Notes: generated by a model not told the origin, from the sequence alone. Positions 1,250-26,444 are shown, counted from the first letter of the stretch. The stretch is DNA of 35,404 nt from an uncultured Acidisphaera sp. (GCA_964250825.1 CAXUIE010000002.1:5072-40475), one strand, 5' to 3'. Made by a program: numbers and translations.

Positions 1250-1537
1250 TTACTTACCCTCTTGATTGGTCTTGGCGCTGGCGTCCTTGTTCATCGCCTT
1301 CACCGTTGGAGGTTGGTTGGTCGATCCGGTCTTCTGGGTGGTCGTCGCGGGCGGCGCGTCGCTCGGCAGCGACGTCTGCGATTGGGGCGCCCTGGCGGGT
1401 CGGCTCGCGCTCGCGCCCACTGGCGTATCGGACGTGGCCTGAGCCTGAACCCGCCCGGCGCACAGCACCGGAACGGTCAAGGCCAGGATCACCGCCAGAA
1501 CTCGCTCGGCCATCGGGATCACTCCGCTGCTGCTCAT
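1250..1537 (-). CDS. Small secreted low-complexity protein (95 aa), translationally coupled to the Mo-subunit gene
   Basis: ATG (1535-1537) overlaps the TGA (1534-1536) of the upstream gene (ATGA). The N-terminus is signal-like (AERVLAVILALTVPVLCAGRVQAQA) and is followed by a Ser/Thr/Pro/Gln-rich tail. No recognisable domain, and a shadow ORF cannot be fully excluded. Confidence 0.45.
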   Translation of the reverse strand: MSSSGVIPMAERVLAVILALTVPVLCAGRVQAQATSDTPVGASASRPARAPQSQTSLPSDAPPATTTQKTGSTNQPPTVKAMNKDASAKTNQEGK

Positions 1538-3828
1538 GTCTCGAGTTGCTTTCCGAGAGGCATGTTTCGGATGCGCTTTCCGGTCGCGGCGAAGATCGCA
1601 TTCATCAGCGCCGGAGCGAACGGCGGAACCCCCGGCTCGCCCACCCCGCTCGGCGGCACGTCGGGATCGGCCGGCACGATGTGGACATTCGTCACCGCCG
1701 GTGATTCGTCGATCCGCGCCACCGGAAAGTCGTCGAAGTTCGACTGCTGCACCCTGCCATCCTTGAACGTGATCTCGCCGTGCTTGGCGAGGCTCAAGCC
1801 CATGATCGCCGCACCCTCCATTTGCGATTGGATCCGTTCGGGGTTGACGAACGTGCCGCAATCGACCGCCGTGTCGACGCGCGGGATGGTGAGTTCGCCC
1901 TTATCGCTCACCGCCACCTCGACGATGGTCGCGATATAGCTAACGAAACTGCGGTGTGCCGCGATGCCGAGCCCGTGACCCTTCGGCAGGGAGCGGCCCC
2001 AACCGCCCTTGTCCGCTACGACCTCCACCACGCGGCGCAGCCGGCCCGCGTCGTTGGGATAGCTGTCGAGCGGCTCGCCGTAATTCCACAATTTTTGGAC
2101 CGACGCGTTCATCTTCACGATGCGGGGCGGGCCGATCAGCTCAAGCAGCATGTCCTTCGGATCGCGCCCCGTCGCGTGGGCGATTTCCGCGACCATCGAC
2201 TGCACGGCGAAGGCGTGCGGGATGTTGGACACCGAGCGGAGCCAGCCGATTCGCGTGTGCGCGGCCGCCTCCGGGTTCTCGCAGCGGATGTTGGGGATGT
2301 CGAACGGGAGGTCGACGAACCCCATGCCGAGCTCGAACGGAGCCTGGTGCGCGGCACCCGCCGCGAACGTGGAGAAGATGGTTGGGGCCACGCTTCGGTG
2401 CCGCCATGCGACGACCTTGCCGCTCTTGTCGACCCCCGCCTCGATGCGCTCCGCCGACACGGTGTGCAGGAAATCGTGGCGGACGTCGTCCTCGCGCGTC
2501 CATTGCAGACGCACGGGGGCGTCGATGGAGCGCGAGATCAGCGCCGCTTCCAGCACGAAGTCGCATTTCGACTTGCGGCCGAAGCCGCCGCCCAGCAGCG
2601 TCACGTTGACCGTGACATCCCCTTCCGGGATGCCGAGCGTCTTGGCCAGATCCTCGCGCGTGCCGCCCGGGCTTTGCACCGGCGCCCAGACCTCGGCGCG
2701 GCCGTTGGCGACGTTCGCCAGCGCGACCGGCGGCTCCATGCTCACATGCGCGAGATGCGGGAGGTAATACTCGCCGACGACGATCTTGTCAGCGCTCTTC
2801 AGCGCGCCTTCCGCGTCGCCGTCGTCGCGCACCACAGTTCCGGGCTTGCGCGCCGCCGCTTCGAGCTCCTGCCTGTACGACGCGGAGTCGTAATGCGCGT
2901 TGGCGCCGTCGTCCCAGACAACCTTCAGCGCGTCCCGCCCCTTGATCGCCGCCCCGGTGTTGCGCGCGATCACTGCCACGCCGCCGAGCGGCTGGAACTT
3001 GGACGGCCACGGCCAGCCCTGGACCTCGATCACCTTCTCCACGCCCGGCACCGCGAGAGCGTCCTTCGGGTCGAACGACACGAGCTTGCCGCCGACCACG
3101 GGAGGACGGGCGATCACGGCGTACTTCATCCCGGGCAGCTTGTGGTCCGCACCATAAACGGCGGTGCCGGTGGTGATGGCGCGCAGATCGACGATGCCGA
3201 CCTTGCCCTTGCCCATGTAGCGGAAGTCTTTCGGGTCCTTCAGCTTCAGGTCGGCGAGGTTCGGAACCGGCTGGGCGGCGGCGTCAGAGGCGAGATCGCC
3301 GAAGCCGACGCGACGACCGCCCGATTGGTCAACTACTTCGTGGTTGACCGCCTTGCACTGCGACGCCGGGATGCCCCAGCGCTTGGCGGCGGCCGCCTCC
3401 AGCATGGCGCGCGCGGACGCTCCCATCTGCCGCATCGGGATCAGGTAGTGGCGCGTGCTGCGCGAGCCGTCGGTGTCCTGGTTGCCGTACTTGGCCTCGT
3501 CGCCGGGCGCTTGCTGCACGCGCACCCGCGACCAATCGGCTTCCATCTCATCGGCGACGATCATCGGCAGGCTGGTGCGCACACCCGTGCCCATCTCCGA
3601 GCGGTGAGCGATGATGGTCACGGTGCCGTCCGGCGCGACCGCGACGAAGATCTTGGGATCAACAACCACGCCATGCGGCATCGCGCCGGCGCCCGTGTTG
3701 TACGCCGCCATCGCCGGCTTCGGCAGCAGGGGGGCGGCAAGCACCAAGCCGCCGGTTATGCCGAGGCCTTGCAGGACCTTGCGGCGCGAGACGTTCTCGA
3801 CGGGAAAGGAGCGCTTCATGACATGCAT
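1534..3828 (-). CDS. Molybdopterin-binding large (beta) subunit of an IorAB-type aldehyde/isoquinoline oxidoreductase, Tat-exported
   Basis: Twin-arginine signal SRRKVLQGLGITGGLVLAAP..AMA. Family-typical blocks include IIAHRSEMGTGVRTSLPMIVADE, TLLGGGFGRKS and MEGAAIMGLS. Start chosen at ATG 3826-3828 (MHVMKRSF), 2 nt after the 2Fe-2S gene stop. The track start at 3888 would overlap that gene. Confidence 0.9.
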   Translation of the reverse strand: MHVMKRSFPVENVSRRKVLQGLGITGGLVLAAPLLPKPAMAAYNTGAGAMPHGVVVDPKIFVAVAPDGTVTIIAHRSEMGTGVRTSLPMIVADEMEADWSRVRVQQAPGDEAKYGNQDTDGSRSTRHYLIPMRQMGASARAMLEAAAAKRWGIPASQCKAVNHEVVDQSGGRRVGFGDLASDAAAQPVPNLADLKLKDPKDFRYMGKGKVGIVDLRAITTGTAVYGADHKLPGMKYAVIARPPVVGGKLVSFDPKDALAVPGVEKVIEVQGWPWPSKFQPLGGVAVIARNTGAAIKGRDALKVVWDDGANAHYDSASYRQELEAAARKPGTVVRDDGDAEGALKSADKIVVGEYYLPHLAHVSMEPPVALANVANGRAEVWAPVQSPGGTREDLAKTLGIPEGDVTVNVTLLGGGFGRKSKCDFVLEAALISRSIDAPVRLQWTREDDVRHDFLHTVSAERIEAGVDKSGKVVAWRHRSVAPTIFSTFAAGAAHQAPFELGMGFVDLPFDIPNIRCENPEAAAHTRIGWLRSVSNIPHAFAVQSMVAEIAHATGRDPKDMLLELIGPPRIVKMNASVQKLWNYGEPLDSYPNDAGRLRRVVEVVADKGGWGRSLPKGHGLGIAAHRSFVSYIATIVEVAVSDKGELTIPRVDTAVDCGTFVNPERIQSQMEGAAIMGLSLAKHGEITFKDGRVQQSNFDDFPVARIDESPAVTNVHIVPADPDVPPSGVGEPGVPPFAPALMNAIFAATGKRIRNMPLGKQLET

Positions 3829-3830
3829 GG

Positions 3831-4283
3831 TCAGGCCCCCGTCGCCGCGAGACGCACCGCGATCTCGATTCGCTGGTAACAGCCGCACCGACAGATGTTG
3901 CCGGACATCGACTCGCGGATCTCGTCATTGCTGGGATGCGGGTTGTCCTTGAGCAGCGCCGCAGCCTGCATGATCTGCCCCGCCTGGCAGAACCCGCACT
4001 GCGGCACGTTGACCTCGCGCCACGCCTTCTGCACCGGATGGTCGCCGTGCGGGTCAAGCCCCTCGATCGTCGTCACCTCGCGGTTCCCGACGTCGGACAC
4101 CGCCGTTATGCACGACCGCGTCGCTTGGCCGTCGATGTGAACCGTGCAGGCGCCGCACAACGCCTGGCCGCAACCGAACTTCGTTCCGGTCAGCCCGGCT
4201 TCGTCGCGCAGGAACCAAAGCAGCGGCAGCGACGGATCGCCGTCCCACCTTTGCTCCTGGCCGTTGACCTTAAGTTTGATCAT
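3831..4283 (-). CDS. (2Fe-2S)-binding small (alpha) subunit of the IorAB-type oxidoreductase
   Basis: 150 aa with two [2Fe-2S] cysteine clusters: GCGQALCGACTV (plant-type) and CGFCQ...CRCGCY. It lies immediately upstream of the Mo subunit. Confidence 0.92.
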   Translation of the reverse strand: MIKLKVNGQEQRWDGDPSLPLLWFLRDEAGLTGTKFGCGQALCGACTVHIDGQATRSCITAVSDVGNREVTTIEGLDPHGDHPVQKAWREVNVPQCGFCQAGQIMQAAALLKDNPHPSNDEIRESMSGNICRCGCYQRIEIAVRLAATGA

Positions 4284-4408: not shown

Positions 4409-6136
4409 TCACTTTCTTACCGCGAACACCCAAACGACGCCACCTTGCGGGACGTTGTCTTCGACGCCGACATTGTCCTTGGCGAGCGCGTCCTGGATGC
4501 GCTGCGCATCGACACCCCAGCCCGACTGCACGGCGATGTACTCCGTCCCGTCCACCTCGTAGGCGATGGGCATGCCCACGATGCCCGAGTTGGTCTTCTG
4601 CTCCCAGAGCAGATCCCCGGTCTTGGCGTCGAAGGCGTGGAACTCCCGGTCGTTGGTCCCGCCGACGAACACGAGACCGCCAGCCGTCGCGGTCACGGAG
4701 GCGAACAGCTGCGATCCAGGGAAATTGTGCGACCAGGCCTTCTTTCCCGTTGCCGGATCCCACGCCTGCAACTCGCCGAAATGGTCGGCGCCGGAGCGCA
4801 CAGTCAAGCCGATGTCCTCCGCCTTGGTGCCGAGCCAAGGCTCGCCAGGCTTCAGTGGAAGCTTTTCGCCGGTGAAGCCTCCACAGAAATTCTCATTGGC
4901 GGGCACGTAGACGAGGCCGGTCTGCTGGCTGTAGGCGGCGGACGGCCAGTCCTTGCCGCCCCACAAGGACGGGCAGAACTCGATGCGCTTGCCGAGCGTG
5001 GGCTTATGCGCCGGGTCAACGATCGGCGTGCCGCTGCCGGGCTCGACCCCCTTCCAAACGTTTGTATTCACAAACGGCCAGCTGGCGACGTAGCTGATCG
5101 CGTCGGGCTTGCGCTGCAGCACCCAGAACATCGCGTCGCGGCCGGGGTGGACGAGGCTTTTGATGACGTGGCCGTCGCGGTTCATGTCGATCAGCATCGG
5201 CGCGTCAACCTCGTCCCAGTCCCAGGAATCATTCGGGTGATACTGGTGATAGGCCTTGATCTTGCCGCTGTCAGGATCGAGCCCGATGACCGACGACGTG
5301 TACAGGTTGTCGCCGGGATGAAGGTCACCAGGCCACGGTGCCGCATTGCCGACACCCCAGTAGATCGTCTTGAGGTCGGGGTCGTAGGTGCCGGTCATCC
5401 AGGCCGACCCGCCGCCGGTTTTCCAGGCGTCGCCCTGCCAGGTGTCGTGACCGGGCTCTCCTTCGCCGGGGATCGTGTAGGTGCGCCACAACTCCTTGCC
5501 GTCGTTCGCGTCGAGCGCGACCACGTAGCCGCGCACGCCGAGCTCTCCGCCCGAGCCGCCGACGATCACCTTGCCGTCCACCACCAACGGCATCAAGGTC
5601 ATGTACTGGCCCCTCTTGTACTCCTGGATTTTCTTATCCCACGCGACCTTCCCGGTCTTGGCGTCGAGGGCGACGACATGATCGTCGGTGGTCGCGAGGA
5701 ACAGCTTGTCCTGCCAAAGGCCCACGCCGCGGCTCGTCGGGTGCATCTGATACAGATCGTCCGGCAGCTCGCGCTTGTAGCGCCAAATCTCCTCGCCGGT
5801 TTTGGCGTTGAGCGCAATGACCTGACCCGCCGGCGTCGCGACGAACATGTAGCCGTTATTGATGATGGGCGGCGCCTCGTGGCCTTCGCTCACATTGGTC
5901 GAGAAGGTCCAAACCGGGACGAGGTTCTTGACGTTAGTGGTGTTGATCTGGTCGAGCGTGCTGTAGCCCTGCCCGTCATACGTACGGCGATACAGCATCC
6001 AGTTGCCGGGTTCGGGGTTCTTGAGCCGATCGGCGGTGACCGGGCTGTAGTTGTCGATCTCGCCGGCCCCGGCCGCGATCGGTGCGAGGCACGTCGAGGC
6101 GATCAACGCCGACATCAGCCACTGTTTCACGCTCAT
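4409..6136 (-). CDS. PQQ-dependent dehydrogenase, methanol/ethanol family, paralog 1; lacks the vicinal Cys-Cys and carries a D-x-D motif
   Basis: 575 aa with a Sec-type signal (MSVKQWLMSALIASTCLAPIAAGAG). Eight-bladed propeller W-motif repeats are present (VALDAKTGK..W, AFDAKTGDLLW). Metal/PQQ ligand contexts are GGSGGELGVRGY, GVGNAAPW and NDSWDWDE. ATG at 6134-6136. Confidence 0.93.
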   Translation of the reverse strand: MSVKQWLMSALIASTCLAPIAAGAGEIDNYSPVTADRLKNPEPGNWMLYRRTYDGQGYSTLDQINTTNVKNLVPVWTFSTNVSEGHEAPPIINNGYMFVATPAGQVIALNAKTGEEIWRYKRELPDDLYQMHPTSRGVGLWQDKLFLATTDDHVVALDAKTGKVAWDKKIQEYKRGQYMTLMPLVVDGKVIVGGSGGELGVRGYVVALDANDGKELWRTYTIPGEGEPGHDTWQGDAWKTGGGSAWMTGTYDPDLKTIYWGVGNAAPWPGDLHPGDNLYTSSVIGLDPDSGKIKAYHQYHPNDSWDWDEVDAPMLIDMNRDGHVIKSLVHPGRDAMFWVLQRKPDAISYVASWPFVNTNVWKGVEPGSGTPIVDPAHKPTLGKRIEFCPSLWGGKDWPSAAYSQQTGLVYVPANENFCGGFTGEKLPLKPGEPWLGTKAEDIGLTVRSGADHFGELQAWDPATGKKAWSHNFPGSQLFASVTATAGGLVFVGGTNDREFHAFDAKTGDLLWEQKTNSGIVGMPIAYEVDGTEYIAVQSGWGVDAQRIQDALAKDNVGVEDNVPQGGVVWVFAVRK

Positions 6137-6196
6137 GAACTTCCCCCACTTGGTTTTGTTCTTTCGCCTGCATCGATTCGCGATGCGGCGCCACCA

Positions 6197-6892
6197 TCAA
6201 GCCGATTGTTGCGCGCCTACCTTCCCGATGAAACCCTGCGCCACCGTAATGGTCTGGCCCGCCTTGGCAAGCGGCAGCGCCGCCAAGTGCCGGGGCGCCG
6301 GGCCGAACACCACTTCGGCGCCCTGCCGCGGGTCGTACTCGGAATTATGGCAAAGGCACTTGAGCACGTTCTGGTCGTTCTCCTTGACCCATGCCGTCAC
6401 CGGGCAACCGGCGTGCGCGCAGATTGCCGAATAGGCAACGATGCCGCCGGCGGCGCGCGCCTTCGTGTTCTCGTCGAGTTCCGATTCCTGCAGCCGCAAC
6501 AGAAGCACCTGGTTCAAGCGCGACCCGTCCCGCACGACCTTGGTCCGTGGGTCCATTGGCCACGCCATTACCTGGGGGCCGCCGAGCGGGAGATCTTCGG
6601 GCTTGATGACCTGGCCCACATGCTCGTCTTCGGCAAACACGAGAATGTCGCCCTTTTGGGGCCGCTCGTCGCTGCCGGGCTTTTCCTCGTCATCCGCCCG
6701 CGCCGACCCGGCGGTGGACAGGGCAACGCCGGCCGCCAGCGCCGTCAGCAGAACTTGTCGCCGTGGAGCCGCCGGACCCAACTCATGGTCGCCCGTGTTG
6801 CCCGATTCCATTGAGTTGTCGCCGCCCATCGCCTCGTTCGCCATCCGCGCTACCGCGCCGTGTGCCGACATCGTTGGTAATCCGTGATGCAC
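6197..6892 (-). CDS. Tat-exported Rieske [2Fe-2S] protein
   Basis: Rieske boxes CAHAGC and CLCHNS. Twin-arginine motif PRRQVLLTALAAGVALSTAGSARA. The start is ambiguous: GTG at 6890-6892 is the maximal extent, and in-frame ATGs include 6809-6811 (MESGNTG..), which still precedes the Tat motif. Confidence 0.85.
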   Translation of the reverse strand: MHHGLPTMSAHGAVARMANEAMGGDNSMESGNTGDHELGPAAPRRQVLLTALAAGVALSTAGSARADDEEKPGSDERPQKGDILVFAEDEHVGQVIKPEDLPLGGPQVMAWPMDPRTKVVRDGSRLNQVLLLRLQESELDENTKARAAGGIVAYSAICAHAGCPVTAWVKENDQNVLKCLCHNSEYDPRQGAEVVFGPAPRHLAALPLAKAGQTITVAQGFIGKVGAQQSA

Positions 6893-6998
6893 TCGATCAT
6901 TTGCATGAAACTAGGAACCAGTTTTGCGCAATTGCCGAAACGTGTCCATCCACAACCAAGGTGAGACTCTTGCACCGGGGCGCCGCGCGGCGCGTCGC

Positions 6999-7940
6999 TC
7001 AGTCTCCGGCCAACGCGGTCGGACCGATCGTCGGCGGAACCGCTGGCGTCCGCGGCGGCACGTAGGTCAGCCCGGCGGCGTTCGCGATCGCTTCAACCGC
7101 GTTGCGGGATTGCAAGCTCGCGATGGCGGTGTCCGCCGCCGCGATCAGAGCCCGGTCGGAGGCGAGCCCGACATAGCCCATGTTGAAGCCAACGGAATGG
7201 ACGTAGCCGGTGGCGGCCAACCCGATCGTGCCGTGCTTGAGACGCCACGCGTCGAGCTCGCGCAGCGCCACGAACGCGGCGTCGAGCTCGCCGCGGTCGA
7301 GCCGGTCGAACAGCGCGCGCGCGTCCGGCACGTGGACGACGTGTTCCCGCAGTTGCCCGTCGCCGTAGTTCATGGCGATTGCGTCCGCGAGCGTCGCGAT
7401 CTCGACGCCGACAGTCAGGCCCGCGAGATCGGCTAGCTTGTGGACCGGGCGGTCGCCCTTTTGAGCCGACAGCACCACTGTGATCGCGTCCAGCCTATAG
7501 GGCCGGGTGGGGGCGAGCTCCCCTAATTTTACCCAGCGCGCGCGATCGTCCGGCGCGGCGCCGTCGAAGGGCGGCAGCTTGCCAACTGGCGCGGCCGAGG
7601 GGCCGACCGTGTCCTGCGCCAGCGGATATTCAGCCACAAGCTGGCACCGGCCATCCGACAGTAGCGCGTTCGCCTCCTTGATGAGGCTCGCATCCGGGTC
7701 GTCGCGGCTGACGAACCATTGCACGCGCAACTCGCGCCCGAGGCGCTCCGCAATTGCTCGCGAGAGCGCGACCGCGAAGCCCTCCTTTTCGCTGTTGCGA
7801 ACGGAAAGCGGCGGGTCGCTAGCTTGGAGGCAGACGCGAAGGGTTTTCTCCGCGGAGTTCGGTGCATCGGGCGGAGCGGCCGCTGCAAACGAAGATCCAA
7901 ACGCGAGAACGCAGGCCAGAGCCGCCTCGCGCACCGTCAT
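6999..7940 (-). CDS. Quinoprotein-dehydrogenase-associated periplasmic binding protein (MxaJ/XoxJ-like)
   Basis: Start ATG 7938-7940 (MTVREAALACVLAFG.., signal-like) overlaps the cytochrome c TGA (ATGA). The block LRVCLQASDPPLSVRNSEKEGFAVALSRAIAERLG resembles the MxaJ family. The longer track ORF (to 8135) overlaps the cytochrome gene. Confidence 0.85.
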   Translation of the reverse strand: MTVREAALACVLAFGSSFAAAAPPDAPNSAEKTLRVCLQASDPPLSVRNSEKEGFAVALSRAIAERLGRELRVQWFVSRDDPDASLIKEANALLSDGRCQLVAEYPLAQDTVGPSAAPVGKLPPFDGAAPDDRARWVKLGELAPTRPYRLDAITVVLSAQKGDRPVHKLADLAGLTVGVEIATLADAIAMNYGDGQLREHVVHVPDARALFDRLDRGELDAAFVALRELDAWRLKHGTIGLAATGYVHSVGFNMGYVGLASDRALIAAADTAIASLQSRNAVEAIANAAGLTYVPPRTPAVPPTIGPTALAGD

Positions 7941-8275
7941 TGCGGCGCAACGCCTCCGGTGCGAACATAGGCCCATATCGCCTCGATCTCCTCGGGGTGC
8001 AGGACATCTTTCCAAGGTGGCATGCTTCTCTTGCCGTTTTGGACCGAATTGAAGAAGCGCGCCCGATCCGCATGCGGGAACTTGCGAAGGTCGAAAGACT
8101 GGTTCCCCGGATTGACCATGTGCTTCCCGTGGCACGCGGCACAGATGCTATTGAAGAGTTGGTCGCCCGCTTCGAATTGCTGCGGTGAAGGCGGCGGCTC
8201 CGGCGTGTCGGTCTGGGCCGAAGCTGGCGAAGCGCTAAGCAGCGTTCCCGTGAGAAGCAAGGAGGCAAGCCTCAT
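7937..8275 (-). CDS. Monoheme c-type cytochrome (PedF/ExaB/XoxG-like electron acceptor)
   Basis: 112 aa with a signal peptide (MRLASLLLTGTLLSASPASA) and the heme motif CAACH. A distal Met context (SMPPW) is present. It lies directly downstream of a PQQ dehydrogenase. Confidence 0.9.
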   Translation of the reverse strand: MRLASLLLTGTLLSASPASAQTDTPEPPPSPQQFEAGDQLFNSICAACHGKHMVNPGNQSFDLRKFPHADRARFFNSVQNGKRSMPPWKDVLHPEEIEAIWAYVRTGGVAPQ

Positions 8276-8296
8276 TCGTTCTCCGATGAGCAGCGA

Positions 8297-8322
8297 AGAG
8301 GCACCCGGATTCGGGTGCCTCT
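8297..8322 (-). terminator. Intercistronic hairpin (11-bp perfect stem AGAGGCACCCG/CGGGTGCCTCT, 4-nt loop) between PQQ dehydrogenase 2 and the cytochrome c gene
   Basis: Read directly in the 57-nt spacer 8276-8332. No U-tract, so it is more likely an mRNA-stabilising or attenuating element than a full terminator. Confidence 0.5.
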
Positions 8323-8332
8323 CATTCGGTCG

Positions 8333-9997
8333 TTACTGGGGGGTGAGCGCGAACACCCAAAGCGAGCCGCCGGGCGGAACCGCGGCGAGACGCTCGTCGG
8401 CGGAGAAGATGGCGTAAACGCCGCCGATGCCGCTCGATACCGCGACGTATTGGACGCCGTCCTGCTCCCAGGTGACGGGCTGGCCCTCGATGCCGGAGCC
8501 GGTCTTGAACTGCCAGAGCTTCTTTCCGGTGTCGGTGTCGAACGCCTCGAGCTCGCCGGTCAGCTTGCCGGTGAACACCACGTTGCCGGCTGTCGACAGC
8601 ACGCCGGAGAACCGCGGGATATCGCTCGCCACTTCCCACTTGGACTTGCCCGTCATCGGGTCGAGCGCCTTGAGATAACCCCGAGGCCCGTCTGGCCAAA
8701 CCCAATCGATGTCCGCACCCCAATAGGTCAGTCCAGCCCGGTACTGCGGCGTCGTCGGCTTGTAGTGCATGCCCATGTTGATCGTGTTTGCGTAGACGAG
8801 GCCGTTGTTCGGATCGAAGGATATCGGCATCCAGTTCTTGGCCCCGAGCGCGCTTGGCCAAACTTCCTGAGCCTGGCCTTGCTTCACTTTATCGGTCACC
8901 TCCGTCGGGATCGGGCGGCCGGTTTGCATATCGACGCCCTTGGCCCAGGTGATCTTCTGGATGAAGGGGTTGGCCGCGAGCAGCTTGCCGTTCTCCCGGT
9001 CGAGCACGTAGAAGAAGCCGTTTCGATTCGCGTTCATCACGACCTTGGCCGGCTTGCCGTCGATGTTCAAGGTCGCGAGCACCATCTCAGCCACGCTGTC
9101 ATAGTCGTAGGGATCGTTGGGCGTGAACTGGTAATGCCACTTCATCTGACCCGTCTTCGGGTCGAGCGCCACGACGGAGCACGTGTAAAGGTTGTCGCCA
9201 GGATGCGTCATCGGGTTCCATGATCCTGCGTTCCCGGTGCCCCAGTAGACTGTATGAAGATCGGGGTCGAAGGAGCCGGTGATCCATGTCGACGCGCCGC
9301 CGTGCTGCCACGTATCGCCCGGCCAGCTCTTGGCTTCCGGGTCGCCCGGTCCGGCGACGGTGTAGGTCCGCCACAGATGCTTGCCGGTGTCGGGATCCCA
9401 GCCGTCGATGAAGCCGCGAATGCCGTATTCGGCGCCGGAGATGCCGGTAATGACAACGCCGTCCGCGACCAGCGGCGCGACCGTCATCGAGTAGCCGGTC
9501 TTGTAGTCGATCGCGTTCTGCTTCCAGAGCTCCTTGCCGGTCTTGGCGTCGAGCGCCATCACGTTCGCGTCGAGCGTCGTGCGGAATAGCTTGCCGTCAT
9601 ACAACGCGGCGCCCCGGTTGATGATGCCGCAGCACACGATGCGCGGCGTTTCCGGCGGGTAGTCGATCTTGCTTTTCCACAGCTGCTGCCCGGTCTTGGA
9701 GTCGAGCGCCATGGTCGCGGCGTTGGTCGTGACGTAGAGCACGCCCTTGTAGATAAGCGGCTGCGATTCTTCGCTCTTGTTGTCGTCGTAGCTGTAGTTC
9801 CAAACCGGGACCAGGCGCTTGACCGTGTCGCGATTGATCTGCGTCAGCGGGCTGAACCGCTGGAGGTCATAGCTCATTCCGTAGTTCAGGACTTCGGACG
9901 TGTCCGCCGTCCCCTTGGCCAGGTCGGCCGAGGTTTGAGCCTGCGTAGCAAGGGGCGCCAGCACCGCGAGCGACGCCGCGAGCAGAAGCTTTCGCAC
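8333..9997 (-). CDS. PQQ-dependent alcohol dehydrogenase, paralog 2; canonical Cys-Cys and a D-x-D motif
   Basis: 554 aa. GTG start at 9995-9997 is preceded by a purine-rich GGGAAGGGAAG. Signal RKLLLAASLAVLAPLATQAQ, vicinal disulfide context PRIVCCGIINRG, and ligand contexts GISGAEYGIRGF, GTGNAGSW and NDPYDYDS. Confidence 0.93.
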   Translation of the reverse strand: MRKLLLAASLAVLAPLATQAQTSADLAKGTADTSEVLNYGMSYDLQRFSPLTQINRDTVKRLVPVWNYSYDDNKSEESQPLIYKGVLYVTTNAATMALDSKTGQQLWKSKIDYPPETPRIVCCGIINRGAALYDGKLFRTTLDANVMALDAKTGKELWKQNAIDYKTGYSMTVAPLVADGVVITGISGAEYGIRGFIDGWDPDTGKHLWRTYTVAGPGDPEAKSWPGDTWQHGGASTWITGSFDPDLHTVYWGTGNAGSWNPMTHPGDNLYTCSVVALDPKTGQMKWHYQFTPNDPYDYDSVAEMVLATLNIDGKPAKVVMNANRNGFFYVLDRENGKLLAANPFIQKITWAKGVDMQTGRPIPTEVTDKVKQGQAQEVWPSALGAKNWMPISFDPNNGLVYANTINMGMHYKPTTPQYRAGLTYWGADIDWVWPDGPRGYLKALDPMTGKSKWEVASDIPRFSGVLSTAGNVVFTGKLTGELEAFDTDTGKKLWQFKTGSGIEGQPVTWEQDGVQYVAVSSGIGGVYAIFSADERLAAVPPGGSLWVFALTPQ

Positions 9998-10171: not shown

Positions 10172-11281
10172 TCAGGCGGGAACGGCGCCAATCCGGCGAT
10201 AAATGAAGGGAGGCGGAGCCTTCTCGCTCGCCTGCACCGCGATATCGAGCACAGCGTGGTGCGGGGACAGGCCGCACGCGGGATCGGTCGCCGCCGCGTC
10301 GCCGGTCAGCGCGAAAGCCTGGCAGCGGCAGCCGCCCCAATCGATCTCGCGTCGATCGCAGCCGGCGCAGGGCGCGGGCATCCAATCGGTGCCCCGGAAC
10401 CGGTTGAATGCATCCGAATCCCGCCAGATCTCGGCGAGCGAGCGGTCGCGCACGGAAGGGAAATCGAAGCCGGGAAGGCTTTCCGCCGCATGACAAGGCA
10501 GCACGCGGCCGGCCGGGGTCACGACGATGAAGCGTTGTCCCCAACCGCCCATGCAGGGTTTCGGCAGTCGCGCGTGGTAGTCCGGCACGACGTAGTCGAT
10601 CACGACCGCTCCGGCCAAGCGCGCCCGCGCCGCCTCGACATCGGCCGTCCCGACCTCGAGCTGGGCGCGGGAAGGGAGCAGGGCGACTTGGTTGGCCAGT
10701 GCCCAGCCATAATACTGAACATGCGCGACCTCGACCCGCGCCGCGCCAAGCTCCACCGCCATGTCGAGCATGGCCGATAAATTGCCCAGGTTTTGGCGGT
10801 GAACGACCAGATTGACGGTGAGCGGCAGGCCGGCACGCCGCACCATCGCCGCGACCTCCCGCTTCTTTTGCTGCGCGCCCGCCATCCCGGCGACGCGGTC
10901 GCCGTTGGCGTCGTCGGCGTCCTGGAAGCTGATCTGCACGTGGTCGAGCCCGGCATCGGCGAGGGCCGTCAGGCGCGCATCGTTAAGCGTGACGCCGGAC
11001 GTGATTAGGTTGGTGTAGAGACCCGCTCCGACCGCGTGACGGACTAGATCGGCTAGGTCGCGCCGCGCGGCCGGCTCGCCGCCGGAGAAGTGCACCTGCA
11101 GCGCGCCGATCGCCGCCGCCTCCGTCAGCACGCGACGCCATTCCGTCGTGTCGAGTTCGCCGCCCGCGCCGCCCAGCTGCGTCGGGTTGGAGCAGTACGG
11201 GCATTGTAGCGGGCAGCGATGGGTAAGTTCGGCAAGGATCGCGAGCGGCGCCGCGAGAGCGGTGCTGGCGTTGTTCGACAT
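10172..11281 (-). CDS. pqqE: PqqE, radical SAM/SPASM peptide cross-linking enzyme
   Basis: CPLQCPYCSNP radical-SAM motif near the N-terminus, and a C-terminal SPASM Cys cluster (CMGGWG.., PCAGCDRREIDWGGCRCQA). Start ATG 11279-11281 (MSNNAST) is preceded by GGAGGAA. The track start at 11380 is an unsupported extension. Confidence 0.95.
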   Translation of the reverse strand: MSNNASTALAAPLAILAELTHRCPLQCPYCSNPTQLGGAGGELDTTEWRRVLTEAAAIGALQVHFSGGEPAARRDLADLVRHAVGAGLYTNLITSGVTLNDARLTALADAGLDHVQISFQDADDANGDRVAGMAGAQQKKREVAAMVRRAGLPLTVNLVVHRQNLGNLSAMLDMAVELGAARVEVAHVQYYGWALANQVALLPSRAQLEVGTADVEAARARLAGAVVIDYVVPDYHARLPKPCMGGWGQRFIVVTPAGRVLPCHAAESLPGFDFPSVRDRSLAEIWRDSDAFNRFRGTDWMPAPCAGCDRREIDWGGCRCQAFALTGDAAATDPACGLSPHHAVLDIAVQASEKAPPPFIYRRIGAVPA

Positions 11282-11393
11282 TTCCTCCGTGTCCCTTCCC
11301 CGGCGTAAGCCGCCGACATTGGATCGCTTCCGCCGTCCGGACGAGCAATAGGGCGCATAAGCGCCAGTCGGGCGCGACAAAGCCCGATCGGCT

Positions 11394-11406
11394 TATAGTC
11401 TCTATA
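11394..11406. promoter_or_regulatory. AT-rich dyad TATAG-TCT-CTATA (T-N11-A architecture) in the divergent pqqE/pqqA spacer; candidate LysR-type binding site or -10 element
   Basis: Seen directly, and it stands out in GC-rich DNA. It fits the generic LysR T-N11-A box. A LysR gene lies downstream of pqqA. Confidence 0.3.
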
Positions 11407-11490
11407 GCTTTATGTGGACCCCATCTGGTAGGAGGGTGCAATCGAACTCGGCGGGCACCCGGCGAGCGACAACAAATAGGGAGCAAGACG

Positions 11491-11568
11491 ATGTCCTGGC
11501 GCAAACCCACTATTAGCCGTATTGCTGTCGGCTGCGAGATCAACGCGTATGGCTGCGCCGTCGTCTGA
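11491..11568 (+). CDS. pqqA: PqqA, PQQ precursor peptide (25 aa: MSWRKPTISRIAVGCEINAYGCAVV)
   Basis: Not in the ORF track because it is too short. ATG at 11491 is preceded by GGGAG 8 nt upstream; TGA at 11566-11568. The W3/P6/G14/E16/Y20 spacing is identical to known PqqA peptides (M-x-W-x-x-P...G-x-E-x-x-x-Y). Glu and Tyr are the residues fused into PQQ. Confidence 0.85.
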   Translation: MSWRKPTISRIAVGCEINAYGCAVV

Positions 11569-11585
11569 CGTCGGCTGATACCGTG

Positions 11586-11619
11586 CCGGGTGCCGCGGCC
11601 GAGACCGCGTTGCACCCGG
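11586..11619 (+). terminator. Compound hairpin after pqqA (CCGGGTGC-CGCGG-ccgaga-CCGCG-tt-GCACCCGG)
   Basis: Read directly, 18 nt after the pqqA stop. Stem-loops that give a short abundant pqqA transcript are known in other pqq operons. There is no U-tract. Confidence 0.5.
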
Positions 11620-11700
11620 AACAGCCGTTGCGGACTGTGTCGGCGCCCGCCGCTTGGGTGTCTGACGGTTCGGGTGCAGGGCTTCGGGGTCCGCCGGACG

Positions 11701-12696
11701 ATGGCAGCGCCAAGCTTCACGCTTAATCAGCTGCGCATATTCCTGGCTGTCGCACACGCGAGATCGCTGACCCGCGCCGCCAAGCTGCTGGACCAGACGC
11801 AGCCCTCATTGTCTCAACACATCGCCAAGCTCGAGGAATCCGTCGGACAACTATTGTTTGAGCGGGGTCGCGGCCAGTTCGACCTGACGGACGCCGGCGC
11901 ATTCCTGTGCCGCCGCGCCGAAGTCATCATGGCCGAGGTGGACGAGGCGGTGTCCGGGCTCGAGGCTCATGCGAAGGGGATGCGCGGCGTGCTGTCGATC
12001 GGGGCGCTCAGCTCGATCGCGCGCAATCTGCTGCCTGGCGCGCAGACGCGGATGGCCGAGGCCTTCCCGGACCTGGAACTCGACGTGCACGAGGTCGCCC
12101 CCGGCGAGGCGATCGAGATGCTGTACACGCGGCGCCTGACAGTCGCGCTCGTCGCGGCGGGATCGCTCGCTCCGAGCACGCTATCGTTCGCGCGAACCGA
12201 CGTGTTCCGCGACTCATACGTGCTCGCGGTGCCTCGGTCGCTCAATCTACGCGGCGTTGTCGATCCGGCTTCGGAGCTTGGCCCCGGCGCGCGACGCGTG
12301 CTGAACAGCGCGGTGCAGTTCACCTTCGGAACGCAGCACCAGTTGCGCATCTCGGGCTGGTACGATCGCTTTCTCCCGGGTCATTGCGTAGTGGGGCGCG
12401 TGCGGTCGTACGAACTGGCGCTGGCGATGGTGCAGGGGGGACGCGGCATCGCGATCGTCCCGGCGCTCAGCGCCCGGATCGGAGCGGGTGTCGCGTACCA
12501 GGTGACACTCTACGACGTCGGCCTCGAGCAGCGGGACATTGTCGCCCTGACTCCGTCACAATACCGCGGCGTCGAACCGCACGCGAGCCTGTTGGCCGCG
12601 CTCCGCGCGGCGGGATCCTCGATCGATTTGCCGTCGGTGGAGCCGACGCCGCCGTTTCTGCGCGCCGAACGGGCTACGGCGGCGGCGGCGCAGTAG
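11701..12696 (+). CDS. LysR-family transcriptional regulator
   Basis: N-terminal HTH LNQLRIFLAVAHARSLTRAAKLLDQTQPSLSQHIAKLEE plus a LysR substrate-binding-type C-terminus. Start ATG at 11701 (MAAPSF). The 3' end overlaps the pqqD 3' end by 23 nt (convergent). Confidence 0.9.
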   Translation: MAAPSFTLNQLRIFLAVAHARSLTRAAKLLDQTQPSLSQHIAKLEESVGQLLFERGRGQFDLTDAGAFLCRRAEVIMAEVDEAVSGLEAHAKGMRGVLSIGALSSIARNLLPGAQTRMAEAFPDLELDVHEVAPGEAIEMLYTRRLTVALVAAGSLAPSTLSFARTDVFRDSYVLAVPRSLNLRGVVDPASELGPGARRVLNSAVQFTFGTQHQLRISGWYDRFLPGHCVVGRVRSYELALAMVQGGRGIAIVPALSARIGAGVAYQVTLYDVGLEQRDIVALTPSQYRGVEPHASLLAALRAAGSSIDLPSVEPTPPFLRAERATAAAAQ

Positions 12697-12988
12697 CGTC
12701 CTCCAGCACGCCGTCGTCGGCGAGATCCTGCAACAGCGAGAGAATGTCGGCGAGGATCTCCTCGCGCGGCGCGTTGAATCGGCTCGCGAGCGCATCCGCG
12801 ATCGCAGCGACCGAACGGCTGGCGTCGACCAGCTTCAATACCTCGACGGCGATCTCGTCGGGCATCATCAGCCGTTCTGGTGCAAGAATGATCCACGCCT
12901 GCCGGGTTGCGTCGAAGCGGAAGCGGGTGCCGCGCGGCAAGCGCGGAACCGAGGCGGCCGCGACGACAAGCCGGGCGCGCGCGGTCAA
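12674..12988 (-). CDS. pqqD: PqqD, peptide chaperone for PqqE
   Basis: 104 aa, with VPRLPRGTRFRFDATRQAWIILAPERLMMPDEIAVEVLKLVDASRSVAAIADAL typical of PqqD. There is no upstream ATG or GTG in frame. The proposed TTG start (12986-12988) overlaps the pqqC TGA (12985-12987). Confidence 0.85.
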   Translation of the reverse strand: MTARARLVVAAASVPRLPRGTRFRFDATRQAWIILAPERLMMPDEIAVEVLKLVDASRSVAAIADALASRFNAPREEILADILSLLQDLADDGVLEDATAPPPP

Positions 12989-14678: not shown

Positions 14679-14702
14679 CGATCGGGAACGCCGGAAAGGT
14701 GG

Positions 14703-17060: not shown

Positions 17061-17069
17061 CTCAGGCGG

Positions 17070-18296: not shown

Positions 18297-18500
18297 TCGG
18301 TGACGCCTACCCTCCCATTTTGCCCTGACGCGTTCCGTCCGCCAGTGTGATCCAGGAAAAACGGCGCAGCAACGGCCGAGGCTTTCATCGATCGCGACGG
18401 CAACCCGGTAGACGCCCCGTTCGTTACCGCTCGCGTAAACAAATGTCGCGGGACGGCGGCTCGCTTGTCGTTCCGACGGCAAAACGGGGGGATAGGAAGC

Positions 18501-18746: not shown

Positions 18747-18822
18747 GGTATCCAGCCTGCGCCCAACCGGCCGGCCCAGCGACGGCGGGGGCGACGGTTT
18801 GAGCACGACCGACGGTCCAAAC

Positions 18823-22382: not shown

Positions 22383-22498
22383 GCTACTCTCCTCTCAACT
22401 ATTCAAATCGCGCGATCGTCAAATGTCCGGAGCTAGCCCGCCCAAATGCTTGCGGGCCGGCAAGGCTCGCGCGTCGAGGGGGTTTGGCCCTGTCGCGC

Positions 22499-25659: not shown

Positions 25660-25668
25660 CCTCGGCGA

Positions 25669-26370: not shown

Positions 26371-26444
26371 CTCGAATAAACCTTTGGCCTTAGTTGCCCT
26401 GAAGAGACGGTCGGCTAAGCGAGGCGAAGAGCGGCAAGTCACCC

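What the first reader, a model, noticed from the sequence alone, without database searches (positions are those of the whole stretch)
4409..6892. PQQ dehydrogenase paralog without the vicinal Cys-Cys disulfide, paired with a Tat-exported Rieske protein
**Seen in the sequence.** The two PQQ dehydrogenases align well by eye. The canonical paralog (8333-9997) has PRIVCCGIINRGAALYDGKLF. The second (4409-6136) has LYQMHPTSRGVGLWQDKLF at the same place, a loop about 3 residues shorter with no Cys pair. The gene directly upstream (60-nt spacer, same strand) encodes a Rieske protein (CAHAGC / CLCHNS) with a twin-arginine signal.

**Established knowledge.** The adjacent-cysteine disulfide is a hallmark of methanol/ethanol-family quinoproteins and is linked to electron transfer from PQQH2 to the dedicated cytochrome c. 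Quinoproteins with other acceptors, such as membrane glucose dehydrogenase, lack it.

**Inference.** This paralog may pass electrons to a soluble periplasmic Rieske centre instead of cytochrome cL/c550. I do not recognise that pairing as a described quinoprotein redox chain.
Basis: partly seen in the sequence, partly recalled or inferred. Interest (0 to 1): 0.78.

Follow-up and report, generated by a model that had tools for sequence, protein, structure and literature searches.

The report
Rieske protein paired with PQQ dehydrogenase
A periplasmic alcohol-oxidising enzyme that lacks its family's usual cysteine pair is almost always encoded next to an exported iron-sulfur (Rieske) protein, which probably takes its electrons in place of the usual cytochrome c; I found no paper that describes this pairing.

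Summary
Gene 4409-6136 (- strand) encodes a complete lanthanide-type PQQ alcohol dehydrogenase. Its active-site loop reads LYQMHPTSRGV instead of xxCCxxxNRGx. The mature protein has only two cysteines, and both belong to the distal MDH-type disulfide. Sixty bases upstream lies a Rieske gene with a twin-arginine signal, CAHAGC/CLCHNSEY motifs and four cysteines.

The pairing is not chance.
- In an unbiased metagenome sample of this dehydrogenase clade (51-63% identity), 59 of 73 loci have the Rieske gene directly upstream.
- All 78 complete loci fetched with the Rieske as query have the dehydrogenase directly downstream.
- 0 of 29 other PQQ dehydrogenase genes in the same loci have a Rieske upstream.

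The pair occurs in Alpha-, Beta- and Gammaproteobacteria, Binatia and Deinococcota. Two copies lie on a Methylobacterium aquaticum 22A plasmid, evidently the genes published as uncharacterised "PQQ-ADH type 6a".

The best explanation is that the Rieske protein is the dehydrogenase's electron acceptor. This is inferred, not shown.

The link to the missing disulfide is weaker. Some clade members sit next to cytochromes c, and one Deinococcus enzyme that keeps Cys-Cys also has a Rieske upstream. Aldehyde-dehydrogenase-like molybdenum genes downstream, with no cytochrome subunit, may share the acceptor.

The parts
6197..6892 (-). Rieske [2Fe-2S] protein gene. The coordinates give the longest ORF. 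The likely start is ATG 6844 or 6871.
   Evidence: Pfam Rieske scores 36 bits against a cut-off of 20.3. The best solved relative is the Thermus thermophilus bc-complex Rieske 1NYK, E 2.9e-34. All bc1, b6f and AioB equivalog models score below their cut-offs. Homologue starts were compared.
6695..6763 (-). Twin-arginine signal core: RRQVLL, a roughly 17-residue hydrophobic stretch, then ARA before an acidic linker (DDEEKPGSDERPQKGD).
   Evidence: RR plus a short hydrophobic region plus an AxA-like site is conserved in most of the roughly 70 diverse partner Rieske proteins inspected. Cleavage is inferred, not shown.
6404..6421 (-). Rieske box I, CAHAGC: a cluster Cys and His ligand plus one disulfide Cys.
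   Evidence: The CxHxGC motif is present in 141 of 146 partner Rieske sequences.
6335..6358 (-). Rieske box II, CLCHNSEY: a disulfide Cys, a Cys and His ligand, and the Ser and Tyr that raise the potential in bc1-type centres.
   Evidence: CxCHxS-x-[YF] is nearly invariant in the family. The effect of Ser and Tyr on potential comes from established bc1 mutagenesis and is recalled from my own knowledge.
6137..6196 (-). 60-nt spacer between the Rieske stop codon and the dehydrogenase ATG. It holds a GGGGGAA ribosome-binding-like run and no terminator-like hairpin.
4409..6136 (-). PQQ-dependent alcohol dehydrogenase of the Cys-Cys-less clade (probably PQQ-ADH type 6a), with a Sec-type signal peptide.
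   Evidence: TIGR03075 scores 610 bits against a cut-off of 480. The best solved relative is PedH 6zcv, E 2.9e-102. The AlphaFold2 model has pLDDT 81 and pTM 0.86, and Foldseek places PedH on top with TM 0.86.
5723..5767 (-). Active-site loop LPDDLYQMHPTSRGV, which replaces the vicinal Cys-Cys loop. H132 and T134 are invariant in the clade.
   Evidence: The signature H-x-T-[NST]-R-G appears in all 121 clade proteins and in the sequences of all 80 metagenome loci.
5207..5233 (-). NDSWDWDEV: the catalytic Asp plus a second Asp two residues later. This is the signature of lanthanide-type enzymes.
   Evidence: The meaning of the extra Asp is as stated in PMC11996626.
4877..4978 (-). C388 (FCPSLW) and C418 (NFCGG), the only cysteines of the mature enzyme. 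They correspond to the distal MDH disulfide.
   Evidence: Both are invariant in alignments A3 and A4. The equivalence to MxaF C386-C415 is my own alignment from memory.
3831..4283 (-). [2Fe-2S] small subunit of a molybdenum hydroxylase or aldehyde dehydrogenase. It is a likely pathway partner, not part of the conserved core.
   Evidence: Pfam Fer2_2, E 1.8e-29. It is co-located with the pair in most Bradyrhizobium-type loci.
1534..3888 (-). Molybdopterin-binding large subunit with a Tat signal. No cytochrome c subunit gene follows it.
   Evidence: MoCoBD_1 and MoCoBD_2 domains plus a TAT_signal hit. The best solved relative is the large subunit of the Gluconobacter membrane-bound aldehyde dehydrogenase, 8gy3_C, E 1.6e-83. 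None of 68 related loci has a cytochrome c ORF after this gene.
6999..9997 (-). Internal contrast, not part of the module. It comprises a Cys-Cys-containing PQQ dehydrogenase (8333-9997), a monohaem cytochrome c (7937-8275) and a MoxJ-like binding protein (6999 to about 7940).

Best explanation
The region encodes a conserved two-gene redox module.

**Export.** The dehydrogenase goes to the periplasm through Sec and binds PQQ and a lanthanide there. The Rieske protein receives its [2Fe-2S] cluster in the cytoplasm and goes out through Tat, probably as a soluble protein after signal cleavage.

**Electron flow.** The dehydrogenase oxidises an alcohol, or possibly an aldehyde; the substrate is unknown. 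The resulting PQQH2 is re-oxidised in two one-electron steps by the high-potential-type Rieske centre. The Rieske plays the part that cytochrome cL, XoxG or c550 plays for canonical enzymes. It then passes electrons to an unidentified cytochrome c, cupredoxin or oxidase that is not encoded in the module.

**Lineage-specific extension.** In this window and its Bradyrhizobium-type relatives, a cytochrome-less molybdenum aldehyde-dehydrogenase-like enzyme encoded next door probably oxidises the aldehyde product. It may use the same Rieske protein.

**Shown.** Gene content, motifs, the fold of the dehydrogenase, conserved adjacency and co-inheritance.

**Inferred.** Direct electron transfer, solubility of the Rieske protein, its redox potential, the substrate and the downstream acceptor.
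For: **Adjacency.**
- An unbiased sample was fetched with the dehydrogenase as query. Of 73 metagenome loci with enough upstream DNA, 59 have the Rieske gene directly upstream on the same strand, at 51-63% identity to the window enzyme.
- Five of seven hand-picked diverse lineages show the same, including Binatia and Gammaproteobacteria, with no molybdenum genes nearby.
- Of 80 species genomes fetched with the Rieske as query, all 78 complete loci have the dehydrogenase directly downstream.

**Control.** None of 29 non-clade PQQ dehydrogenase genes in the same loci has a Rieske upstream, against 147 of 171 clade genes.

**Annotated plasmids.**
- All 9 records with a PQQ1-like gene at 43% identity or more also hold a Rieske relative, and it lay next to the dehydrogenase in the 7 records examined.
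- None of the 19 Burkholderia-type records at 41% or less holds one.

**The pair stays together.** It survives duplication (L037, L051, and twice on the M. aquaticum plasmid) and gene-order inversion (Paracoccus, Alteromonas).

**Co-divergence.** Mantel r = 0.83 over 60 diverse pairs, and 0 of 1000 permutations reached it.

**Rieske features.** It has all four cysteines of the disulfide-bearing type plus Ser and Tyr after CxCH, and a conserved twin-arginine signal. Its closest solved relative is a respiratory Rieske, 1NYK.

**Same slot, different redox protein.** In some Rieske-less clade members the neighbouring slot holds a class I cytochrome c protein, and P0241 is such a protein fused to the dehydrogenase. 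This marks the slot as the redox-partner position.

**Contrast inside the window.** The Cys-Cys-containing paralog has its own cytochrome c and MoxJ-like gene.
Against: - No biochemical or genetic data exist, and gene adjacency does not prove electron transfer.
- Co-divergence is expected for any two genes inherited together.
- 14 of 73 clade loci have no Rieske within the available flank. These are scattered through the tree, so the enzyme can work with other partners, or the gene lies elsewhere in those genomes.
- The redox potential is inferred from motifs only.
- The Rieske structure model was unusable (pLDDT 37).
- A model of the complex could not be made with the tools.
- In Bradyrhizobium-type genomes the molybdenum enzyme is also linked to the pair (68 of 78 loci). 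There the Rieske could serve that enzyme as well.
Confidence: 0.6

Rival explanations
1. The Rieske protein belongs to the molybdenum aldehyde-dehydrogenase-like enzyme (1534-4283). It would replace the cytochrome c subunit of AldFGH-type enzymes. On this view its position next to the PQQ dehydrogenase only reflects a shared alcohol-to-acid pathway operon.
For: - The large subunit resembles Gluconobacter ALDH (8gy3_C, E 1.6e-83), an enzyme that needs a third, cytochrome subunit.
- No such gene is present in the window or after the MoCo gene in 68 related loci.
- The Mo genes lie within 10 kb of the pair in 68 of 78 Bradyrhizobium-type loci.
- They form the same four-gene row in Stellaceae and on a Roseomonas plasmid.
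Against: - The Rieske is always glued to the PQQ gene, whereas the Mo genes change place: 50 convergent, 14 divergent, 4 on the same strand.
- Outside that lineage the pair occurs without Mo genes. Only about 9 of 73 metagenome loci carry them, and none of the five diverse Rieske-bearing lineages does.
- Azoarcus and Paracoccus carry an NAD-type aldA instead.
- Bradyrhizobium sp. USDA 4369 has the pair alone.
Confidence: 0.07
2. The two proteins are functionally linked, but the Rieske is not the primary acceptor. It could be a stable structural or regulatory subunit. It could donate electrons or protect PQQ. Or it could stand one step further down the chain, after an unlinked cytochrome c.
For: - Some members of the same clade have cytochrome c neighbours or no Rieske at all, so the catalytic subunit does not strictly need a Rieske.
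- MxaI shows that MDH-family enzymes can carry small subunits of unknown function (my own knowledge).
Against: - Cluster ligands, disulfide cysteines and the Ser are conserved across about 140 partners, which argues for a working redox centre.
- In Rieske-less relatives the same gene slot holds a different redox protein.
- No third conserved gene accompanies the pair.
Confidence: 0.2
3. The adjacency has no functional meaning. It would be a conserved but incidental neighbourhood, or the Rieske is a stray paralog of the bc1 subunit, as database names suggest.
For: Sources name the protein 'ubiquinol-cytochrome c reductase iron-sulfur subunit' or 'QcrA and Rieske domain-containing protein'. Its closest solved relatives are bc-complex Rieske proteins.
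Against: - Scores lie far below the cut-offs of every bc1 or b6f equivalog model: 89 against 275, and 34 against 97.
- No cytochrome b or c1 gene was seen in the gene tables of the loci examined.
- The adjacency is conserved across phyla, across duplications and across order inversion.
- The control is 0 of 29.
Confidence: 0.03

Closest known systems
XoxF-XoxG, MxaFI-cytochrome cL and ExaA/PedH-cytochrome c550 (ExaB/PedF) systems
   Same: A periplasmic eight-bladed PQQ dehydrogenase of the methanol/ethanol family, encoded beside a small dedicated one-electron carrier. The catalytic residues are the same, including the lanthanide-type Asp. The window itself carries such a canonical set at 6999-9997.
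   Different: The adjacent carrier is a Tat-exported [2Fe-2S] Rieske protein, not a Sec-exported c-type cytochrome. The vicinal Cys-Cys over PQQ is replaced by an invariant His-x-Thr loop. No MoxJ-like gene belongs to the pair.
[quoted passage not shown] 2014 classification; Adh4 and Adh6 of Methylobacterium aquaticum 22A)
   Same: The window enzyme shares 48-53% identity and the H-x-T-N-R-G loop with the two PQQ-ADH genes on plasmid pMaq22A_1p. PMC7356819 assigns the plasmid genes adh4 and adh6 to type 6a and says the family 'has not been characterized'. PMC8561711 notes that the Cys-Cys is missing in some members of that group.
   Different: Neither paper mentions the Rieske gene ('rieske' occurs 0 times in each). 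No partner, substrate or mechanism has been proposed for this type. I could not place the window protein in a tree with the original reference sequences.
Arsenite oxidase AioAB (and related Mo enzymes with a Rieske subunit)
   Same: A periplasmic dehydrogenase whose electrons leave through a Tat-signal-bearing, disulfide-containing, high-potential Rieske centre to soluble cytochrome c or azurin. This is the best precedent for a Rieske centre acting outside bc complexes.
   Different: In AioAB the Rieske is a tightly bound subunit that carries the signal-less catalytic subunit out through Tat. Here the dehydrogenase has its own Sec signal, so the two must meet in the periplasm. The AioB model scores 44 bits against a cut-off of 95.65. 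The catalytic cofactor is PQQ with a lanthanide, not Mo with [3Fe-4S].
Rieske subunit of cytochrome bc1/b6f and the Thermus bc complex (Qo-site chemistry)
   Same: Closest sequence relatives (1NYK, E 2.9e-34). The cluster motifs, disulfide, Ser and Tyr are the same. The proposed chemistry is also the same in kind: a Rieske centre oxidises a quinol, here protein-bound PQQH2.
   Different: No cytochrome b or c1 gene is nearby. The N-terminus is short and looks cleavable, rather than forming a transmembrane anchor. The protein scores below the cut-offs of all bc1 equivalog models.
Quinohaemoprotein ADHs (type II and III) and the Gluconobacter membrane ADH and ALDH complexes
   Same: Periplasmic alcohol-to-aldehyde-to-acid oxidation by a PQQ enzyme followed by a molybdenum aldehyde dehydrogenase. 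The window's Mo large subunit resembles 8gy3_C.
   Different: Those enzymes carry fused or bound multihaem cytochrome c subunits and reduce ubiquinone in the membrane. The window has no haem subunit for either enzyme. The only small redox protein in the operon is the Rieske.

Membership tests
PQQ-dependent dehydrogenase, methanol/ethanol family (TIGR03075) | Family HMM score above the curated cut-off | tested here: met
   610.4 bits against a cut-off of 480.05.
PQQ-dependent dehydrogenase, methanol/ethanol family (TIGR03075) | Eight-bladed beta-propeller fold | tested here: met
   AlphaFold2 model with pLDDT 81 and pTM 0.86. Foldseek top hit is PedH 6zcv, TM 0.86-0.88.
PQQ-dependent dehydrogenase, methanol/ethanol family (TIGR03075) | Metal and PQQ site residues: Glu of GGE, Asn of GNxxPW, the catalytic Asp, and a conserved Arg | tested here: met
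   SGGELG, GVGNAAPW, WDWD and HPGRDAMFW align with the PedH equivalents. They are invariant in the clade.
PQQ-dependent dehydrogenase, methanol/ethanol family (TIGR03075) | Vicinal Cys-Cys disulfide over PQQ | tested here: not met
   The loop is LYQMHPTSRGV. The mature protein has only C388 and C418. The Cys-Cys is absent throughout the clade.
Lanthanide-dependent subgroup of PQQ-ADHs | An additional Asp two residues after the catalytic Asp | tested here: met
   NDSWDWDEV. The criterion is as used in PMC11996626. Actual metal use cannot be tested here. A sister branch in Paracoccus, Alteromonas and one M. aquaticum copy has DWA, the calcium type.
PQQ-ADH type 6a (Keltjens 2014) | Phylogenetic grouping with the type 6a reference sequences | tested here: inconclusive
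   The evidence is indirect. The only two PQQ1-like genes found on the M. aquaticum 22A plasmid share the clade signature and 48-53% identity. PMC7356819 places the plasmid genes adh4 and adh6 in type 6a. The record is unannotated here, so the locus tags were not matched. The Keltjens paper and its reference set were not available.
Rieske [2Fe-2S] protein, disulfide-bearing high-potential type | CxHxGC and CxCH cluster boxes with the two extra disulfide cysteines | tested here: met
   CAHAGC and CLCHNS, with exactly four Cys. Pfam Rieske scores 36 bits against 20.3. The boxes are conserved in the partner family.
Rieske [2Fe-2S] protein, disulfide-bearing high-potential type | Ser and Tyr hydrogen-bond donors after CxCH, and a midpoint potential above about +150 mV | tested here: inconclusive
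   Ser and Tyr are present (CLCHNSEY). In the family Ser is nearly invariant and the second position is Tyr or Phe. The potential itself cannot be tested here.
Cytochrome bc1/b6f complex Rieske subunit (the name given by some databases) | Equivalog HMM score above the cut-off | tested here: not met
   QcrA_actin 89 against 275, Rieske_proteo 34 against 97, b6f PetC 33 against 250.
Cytochrome bc1/b6f complex Rieske subunit (the name given by some databases) | Encoded with cytochrome b and c1 genes | tested here: not met
   No such domains appear among the window ORFs scanned or in the gene tables of loci L001-L003 and L084-L091.
Tat-exported protein | Twin-arginine motif followed by a hydrophobic region | tested here: met
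   PRRQVLLTALAAGVALSTAGSARA. The same architecture is conserved in most diverse partners. The generic TIGR01409 model gave no hit for this protein. Export and cleavage cannot be tested here.
Arsenite oxidase small subunit AioB | Equivalog HMM score above the cut-off, and an adjacent AioA | tested here: not met
   TIGR02694 scores 44 bits against 95.65. The neighbouring gene is a PQQ enzyme.
AldFGH-type three-subunit periplasmic aldehyde dehydrogenase (neighbouring genes 1534-4283) | Molybdopterin large subunit, 2x[2Fe-2S] small subunit and a cytochrome c subunit | tested here: not met
   The large and small subunits are present. The cytochrome c subunit is absent from the window (the only CxxCH ORF is 7937-8275) and from 68 related loci.

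The most novel reading that the evidence does not exclude
These are 'quino-Rieske' dehydrogenases. The exposed histidine ligand of the Rieske cluster docks into the PQQ funnel. The funnel is opened by loss of the vicinal disulfide and lined by the invariant His-x-Thr loop. The cluster then oxidises enzyme-bound PQQH2 directly by proton-coupled electron transfer, as at the Qo site of bc1 complexes. This would define a widespread haem-independent entry point into the periplasmic respiratory chain. It occurs in soil Bradyrhizobium and in marine lineages. In Bradyrhizobium-type genomes it would also collect electrons from a cytochrome-less molybdenum aldehyde dehydrogenase.
Probability: 0.3. Interest if true: 0.82.

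Novelty: new variant of a known kind. Interest (0 to 1): 0.68.

Why it matters
- **A different acceptor.** To my knowledge, every characterised methanol/ethanol-family quinoprotein hands electrons to a c-type cytochrome, free or fused. An iron-sulfur acceptor would be a different answer to how PQQH2 is re-oxidised. It would also bear on the long-debated role of the vicinal disulfide.
- **A common family.** Relatives of the partner Rieske are encoded in 290 species genomes. Thousands of relatives appear in metagenomes. The family occurs in cultivated Bradyrhizobium species and in M. aquaticum 22A. 'ADH type 6a' is reported among the dominant PQQ dehydrogenase transcripts in deep ocean water (PMC11996626). 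Yet it 'has not been characterized' (PMC7356819).
- **A practical obstacle explained.** Knowing the likely partner makes the family testable. It may help explain why the family has stayed uncharacterised if assays assumed a cytochrome.
- **Annotation.** Databases call the Rieske a bc1 subunit and the enzyme 'alcohol dehydrogenase (cytochrome c)'. The first is contradicted by the model scores. The second is probably wrong if the Rieske is the acceptor.

Tried and rejected
- **Complex model.** I tried to fold the Rieske and the dehydrogenase as one in-frame read-through. No multimer tool was available.
- **Rieske structure.** The AlphaFold2 model from a shallow alignment of 10 sequences was unusable (pLDDT 37). 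I ran no fold search on it and relied on the sequence match to 1NYK instead.
- **Keltjens 2014.** The paper that defines the PQQ-ADH types is not held. The Huang et al. ISME J paper is not held either. The type 6a assignment is therefore indirect.
- **Literature.** Searches combining Rieske with PQQ, quinoprotein or Bradyrhizobium found nothing relevant. The one apparent hit, on Bathyarchaeia, concerns cytoplasmic oxygenase-type Rieske proteins.
- **Mo enzyme as sole partner.** I considered and rejected the idea that the Rieske belongs exclusively to the Mo enzyme.
- **Loss of Cys-Cys as a requirement.** I considered and rejected the idea that loss of Cys-Cys is required for Rieske pairing, because of the Deinococcus case.
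- **Rosetta-stone fusion.** I looked for a fused Rieske-PQQ protein in the hit lists and found none (lengths). The only fusion seen joins a cytochrome c and propeller protein to the dehydrogenase (P0241).
- **Early regex failures.** My first scripts reported 'NA' for the loop only because of over-strict patterns. This was corrected.
- **NJ-tree tags.** The CC tags in the tree are wrong, because insertion columns had been dropped.

Full report
**1. What is in the window**

All genes from 9997 down to 1534 lie on the minus strand.

| Coordinates | Gene | Key evidence |
|---|---|---|
| 8333-9997 | PQQ dehydrogenase PQQ2, with PRIVCCGIINRG and DYD | |
| 7937-8275 | 112-aa monohaem cytochrome c | Pfam Cytochrome_CBB3, E 2.6e-15; |
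| 6999 to about 7940 | MoxJ-like binding protein | |
| 6197-6892 | Rieske protein | |
| 4409-6136 | PQQ dehydrogenase PQQ1 | |
| 3831-4283 | [2Fe-2S] subunit | Fer2_2, E 1.8e-29; |
| 1534-3888 | Molybdopterin-binding subunit with a Tat signal | |

The pqqB, pqqC and pqqE genes lie upstream. So do a TonB-dependent receptor and a protein of the 'PQQ-ADH system' binding-protein family.

**2.

- *Family and fold.* PQQ1 scores 610 bits against the methanol/ethanol-family model (cut-off 480). Its closest solved relative is the lanthanide-dependent PedH. It folds as the expected eight-bladed propeller (pLDDT 81, TM 0.86 to PedH).
- *Catalytic residues.* The metal and PQQ site residues are present, including the extra Asp of lanthanide enzymes (NDSWDWDEV).
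- *The loop.* At the place of the vicinal disulfide the sequence is LPDDLYQMHPTSRGV. This loop is three residues shorter than in PQQ2.
- *Cysteines.* The mature protein has only C388 and C418. Both are invariant in the clade and match the distal disulfide of methanol dehydrogenase. No replacement disulfide can exist.
- *The Rieske ORF.* It ends 60 nt before the PQQ1 start codon, and no terminator-like site lies in that spacer.
- *Rieske motifs.* It has PRRQVLL, a short hydrophobic stretch and ARA, then CAHAGC and CLCHNSEY, with exactly four cysteines.

**3. The clade**

- A search of 1.8 billion representative proteins shows that many PQQ-ADH lineages lack the Cys-Cys. PQQ1 belongs to a distinct group marked by H-x-T-[NST]-R-G in the loop and N-x-S-W-D-W-D-E-V at the metal site.
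- All 121 proteins aligned from a profile search carry both marks. Named sources include Gemmatimonadota, Gammaproteobacteria, Binatia, Entotheonellaceae and Stellaceae.
- In a neighbour-joining tree the group is monophyletic. Its nearest sisters keep the Cys-Cys, so the loss is derived.
- Both PQQ1-like genes on the Methylobacterium aquaticum 22A plasmid carry the signature. Yanpirat et al. place that plasmid's two genes, adh4 and adh6, in 'PQQ-ADH type 6a' and state that the family 'has not been characterized' (PMC7356819).
- Alessa et al. note in passing that the Cys-Cys is missing in some members of that group (PMC8561711).
- So the missing Cys-Cys and the clade are known in outline. The Rieske neighbour is not mentioned in either paper.

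**4.

| Sample | How it was fetched | Result |
|---|---|---|
| Species genomes | Rieske as query; 290 carry a relative, best 80 kept | 78 have a PQQ1-type gene directly downstream; the other 2 are cut by a contig end |
| Metagenome loci | Dehydrogenase clade as query (unbiased for the Rieske); 80 loci at 51-63% identity | 73 have enough upstream DNA; 59 have the Rieske directly upstream on the same strand, 14 have none |
| Hand-picked diverse members | Seven proteins looked up by sequence | 5 have the Rieske directly upstream; none of these has molybdenum genes nearby |
| Other PQQ dehydrogenases in the same loci | Control | 0 of 29 have a Rieske upstream, against 147 of 171 clade genes |
| Annotated plasmids, PQQ1-like at 43% identity or more | Separate protein searches with Rieske and PQQ1 | All 9 records hold a Rieske relative; it lay next to the dehydrogenase in the 7 examined |
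| Annotated plasmids, 41% identity or less | Same searches | 0 of 19 Burkholderia-type records hold one |

The nine plasmid records come from Roseomonas, Azoarcus, M. aquaticum (two copies), Alteromonas, four Paracoccus and Deinococcus.

Further signs that the two genes travel as a unit:
- Duplications keep the pair together (L037, L051, M. aquaticum).
- In Paracoccus and Alteromonas the order is inverted, but the two genes stay adjacent.
- Pairwise distances of the two proteins co-vary: Mantel r = 0.83, and 0 of 1000 permutations reached it. This shows co-inheritance as a unit, not contact.

**5. The Rieske protein**

- Its closest solved relative is the respiratory Rieske of Thermus thermophilus (1NYK, E 2.9e-34).
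- It scores far below the cut-offs of every bc1, b6f or AioB model.
- No cytochrome b or c1 gene accompanies it in the window or in the loci whose gene tables were examined.
- Across about 140 partners the cluster boxes, the two disulfide cysteines and the Ser after CxCH are conserved. The next-but-one residue is Tyr or Phe.
- From established bc1 work (my own knowledge), the disulfide, Ser and Tyr go with potentials of roughly +150 to +300 mV. That is above the PQQ/PQQH2 couple (about +90 mV), so electron flow from PQQH2 to the cluster is thermodynamically plausible. This is inference.
- The N-termini show RR, a short and only moderately hydrophobic stretch, an AxA-like site and a charged linker. 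This looks like a cleavable Tat signal rather than a membrane anchor. That too is inferred.

**6.

- *Clade members without a Rieske.* The 14 Rieske-less loci are scattered among Rieske-linked lineages. In three cases a class I cytochrome c protein sits in the adjacent slot (L089 and L152 upstream, L160 downstream).
- *A fusion.* P0241 is a fusion, or a merged gene call, of such a haem-and-propeller protein with the dehydrogenase. This supports reading the neighbouring slot as the redox-partner position. It also shows that Cys-Cys-less enzymes can have cytochrome partners.
- *The converse case.* Deinococcus aetherius has a Rieske directly upstream of a PQQ dehydrogenase that keeps SCCDVVNRG.
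- *Conclusion.* Loss of the disulfide and use of a Rieske are strongly associated but not strictly coupled.

**7. The molybdenum enzyme**

- The large subunit resembles the Gluconobacter membrane-bound aldehyde dehydrogenase (8gy3_C, E 1.6e-83). The cytochrome c subunit of that enzyme type is missing here, and no cytochrome c ORF follows the gene in 68 related loci.
- The two Mo genes lie within 10 kb of the pair in 68 of 78 Bradyrhizobium-type loci. Their arrangement varies: 50 convergent, 14 divergent, 4 on the same strand.
- They form the same four-gene row in Stellaceae and on a Roseomonas plasmid.
- Elsewhere they are mostly absent. Azoarcus and Paracoccus have an NAD-type aldA instead.
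- The simplest reading is a periplasmic alcohol-to-aldehyde-to-acid route in this lineage. The Rieske may serve both enzymes. The conserved core remains the Rieske-PQQ pair.

**8. Verdict**

- The sequence observation is confirmed.
- The proposal that a Rieske protein replaces the cytochrome as electron acceptor is the best-supported explanation (about 0.6).
- It rests on conserved gene context and motifs only.
- I rate it a new variant of a known kind: a known enzyme family and a known kind of iron-sulfur carrier, in a combination that I did not find described.

Noticed in passing
window 1534-4283 (- strand): A two-subunit molybdenum enzyme, consisting of a [2Fe-2S] subunit and a Tat-signal MoCo subunit. 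It is most like the Gluconobacter membrane-bound aldehyde dehydrogenase (8gy3_C), but no cytochrome c subunit gene is present. It lies within 10 kb of the Rieske-PQQ pair in 68 of 78 Bradyrhizobium-type loci, in three different arrangements.
   Followed up: partly
window 6999-9997 (- strand): A canonical set lies directly upstream of the Rieske gene: a Cys-Cys-containing, lanthanide-type (DYD) PQQ dehydrogenase closest to PedH, a 112-aa cytochrome c (7937-8275) and a MoxJ-like binding protein. All seven genes from 9997 to 1534 could form one long operon, because no convincing terminator was found between them.
   Followed up: partly
L176 (Deinococcus aetherius plasmid pDAETH-2), Rieske 4878-5453 and PQQ dehydrogenase 5508-7172: A Rieske gene sits directly upstream of a PQQ dehydrogenase that keeps the vicinal Cys-Cys (SCCDVVNRG, DYD). 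So Rieske pairing is not confined to Cys-Cys-less enzymes.
   Followed up: partly
L173, L174, L180 (Paracoccus and Alteromonas plasmids); also L175 (M. aquaticum): A sister branch of the clade has the H-x-T loop but DWA at the metal site, which is the calcium type. In Paracoccus and Alteromonas the gene order is PQQ dehydrogenase, then Rieske, then a conserved secreted, cysteine-rich protein of 136-153 aa with no assigned function. That third protein is absent from the window and from all other fetched loci.
   Followed up: partly
L089 5404-6930 and protein P0241 (1075 aa): In a Rieske-less sub-branch the upstream gene encodes a 508-aa beta-propeller protein with a C-terminal class I cytochrome c domain. 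P0241 is the same protein fused to the dehydrogenase, or the two were merged by the gene caller. L089 also has a 679-aa Peripla_BP_6 protein directly downstream.
   Followed up: partly
window 10172-19073: The PQQ biosynthesis genes pqqB (13731-14678), pqqC (12985-13734) and pqqE (10172-11380) have a LysR regulator on the opposite strand (11590-12696) between pqqC and pqqE, and I could not identify pqqD. Next to them lie a TonB-dependent receptor (14703-17060, weak PqqU and siderophore-type hits) and a 667-aa protein whose C-terminal half matches TIGR03863, the 'PQQ-ADH system' binding protein.
   Followed up: no
L037 and L051 (Bradyrhizobium genomes); L175 and L179 (M. aquaticum 22A plasmid): The Rieske-PQQ pair is duplicated as a unit within single genomes. 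In M. aquaticum one copy is lanthanide-type (DWD) and the other calcium-type (DWA).
   Followed up: partly
L177 (Thermus thermophilus plasmid pAK1c) 4854-5447: A related Rieske protein (42% identity over the N-terminal part of the domain) is encoded between a GH15 glycoside hydrolase and a TauE/SafE exporter, with no PQQ enzyme nearby. The Rieske family therefore has other contexts outside the pair.
   Followed up: no
window 20200-30689 (- strand): An ordinary-looking exopolysaccharide cluster: a Wzz/tyrosine-kinase-like protein, WecG and GT4 glycosyltransferases, a Polysacc_synt flippase, an acetyltransferase and a fatty-acid hydroxylase. It appears unrelated to the finding.
   Followed up: no
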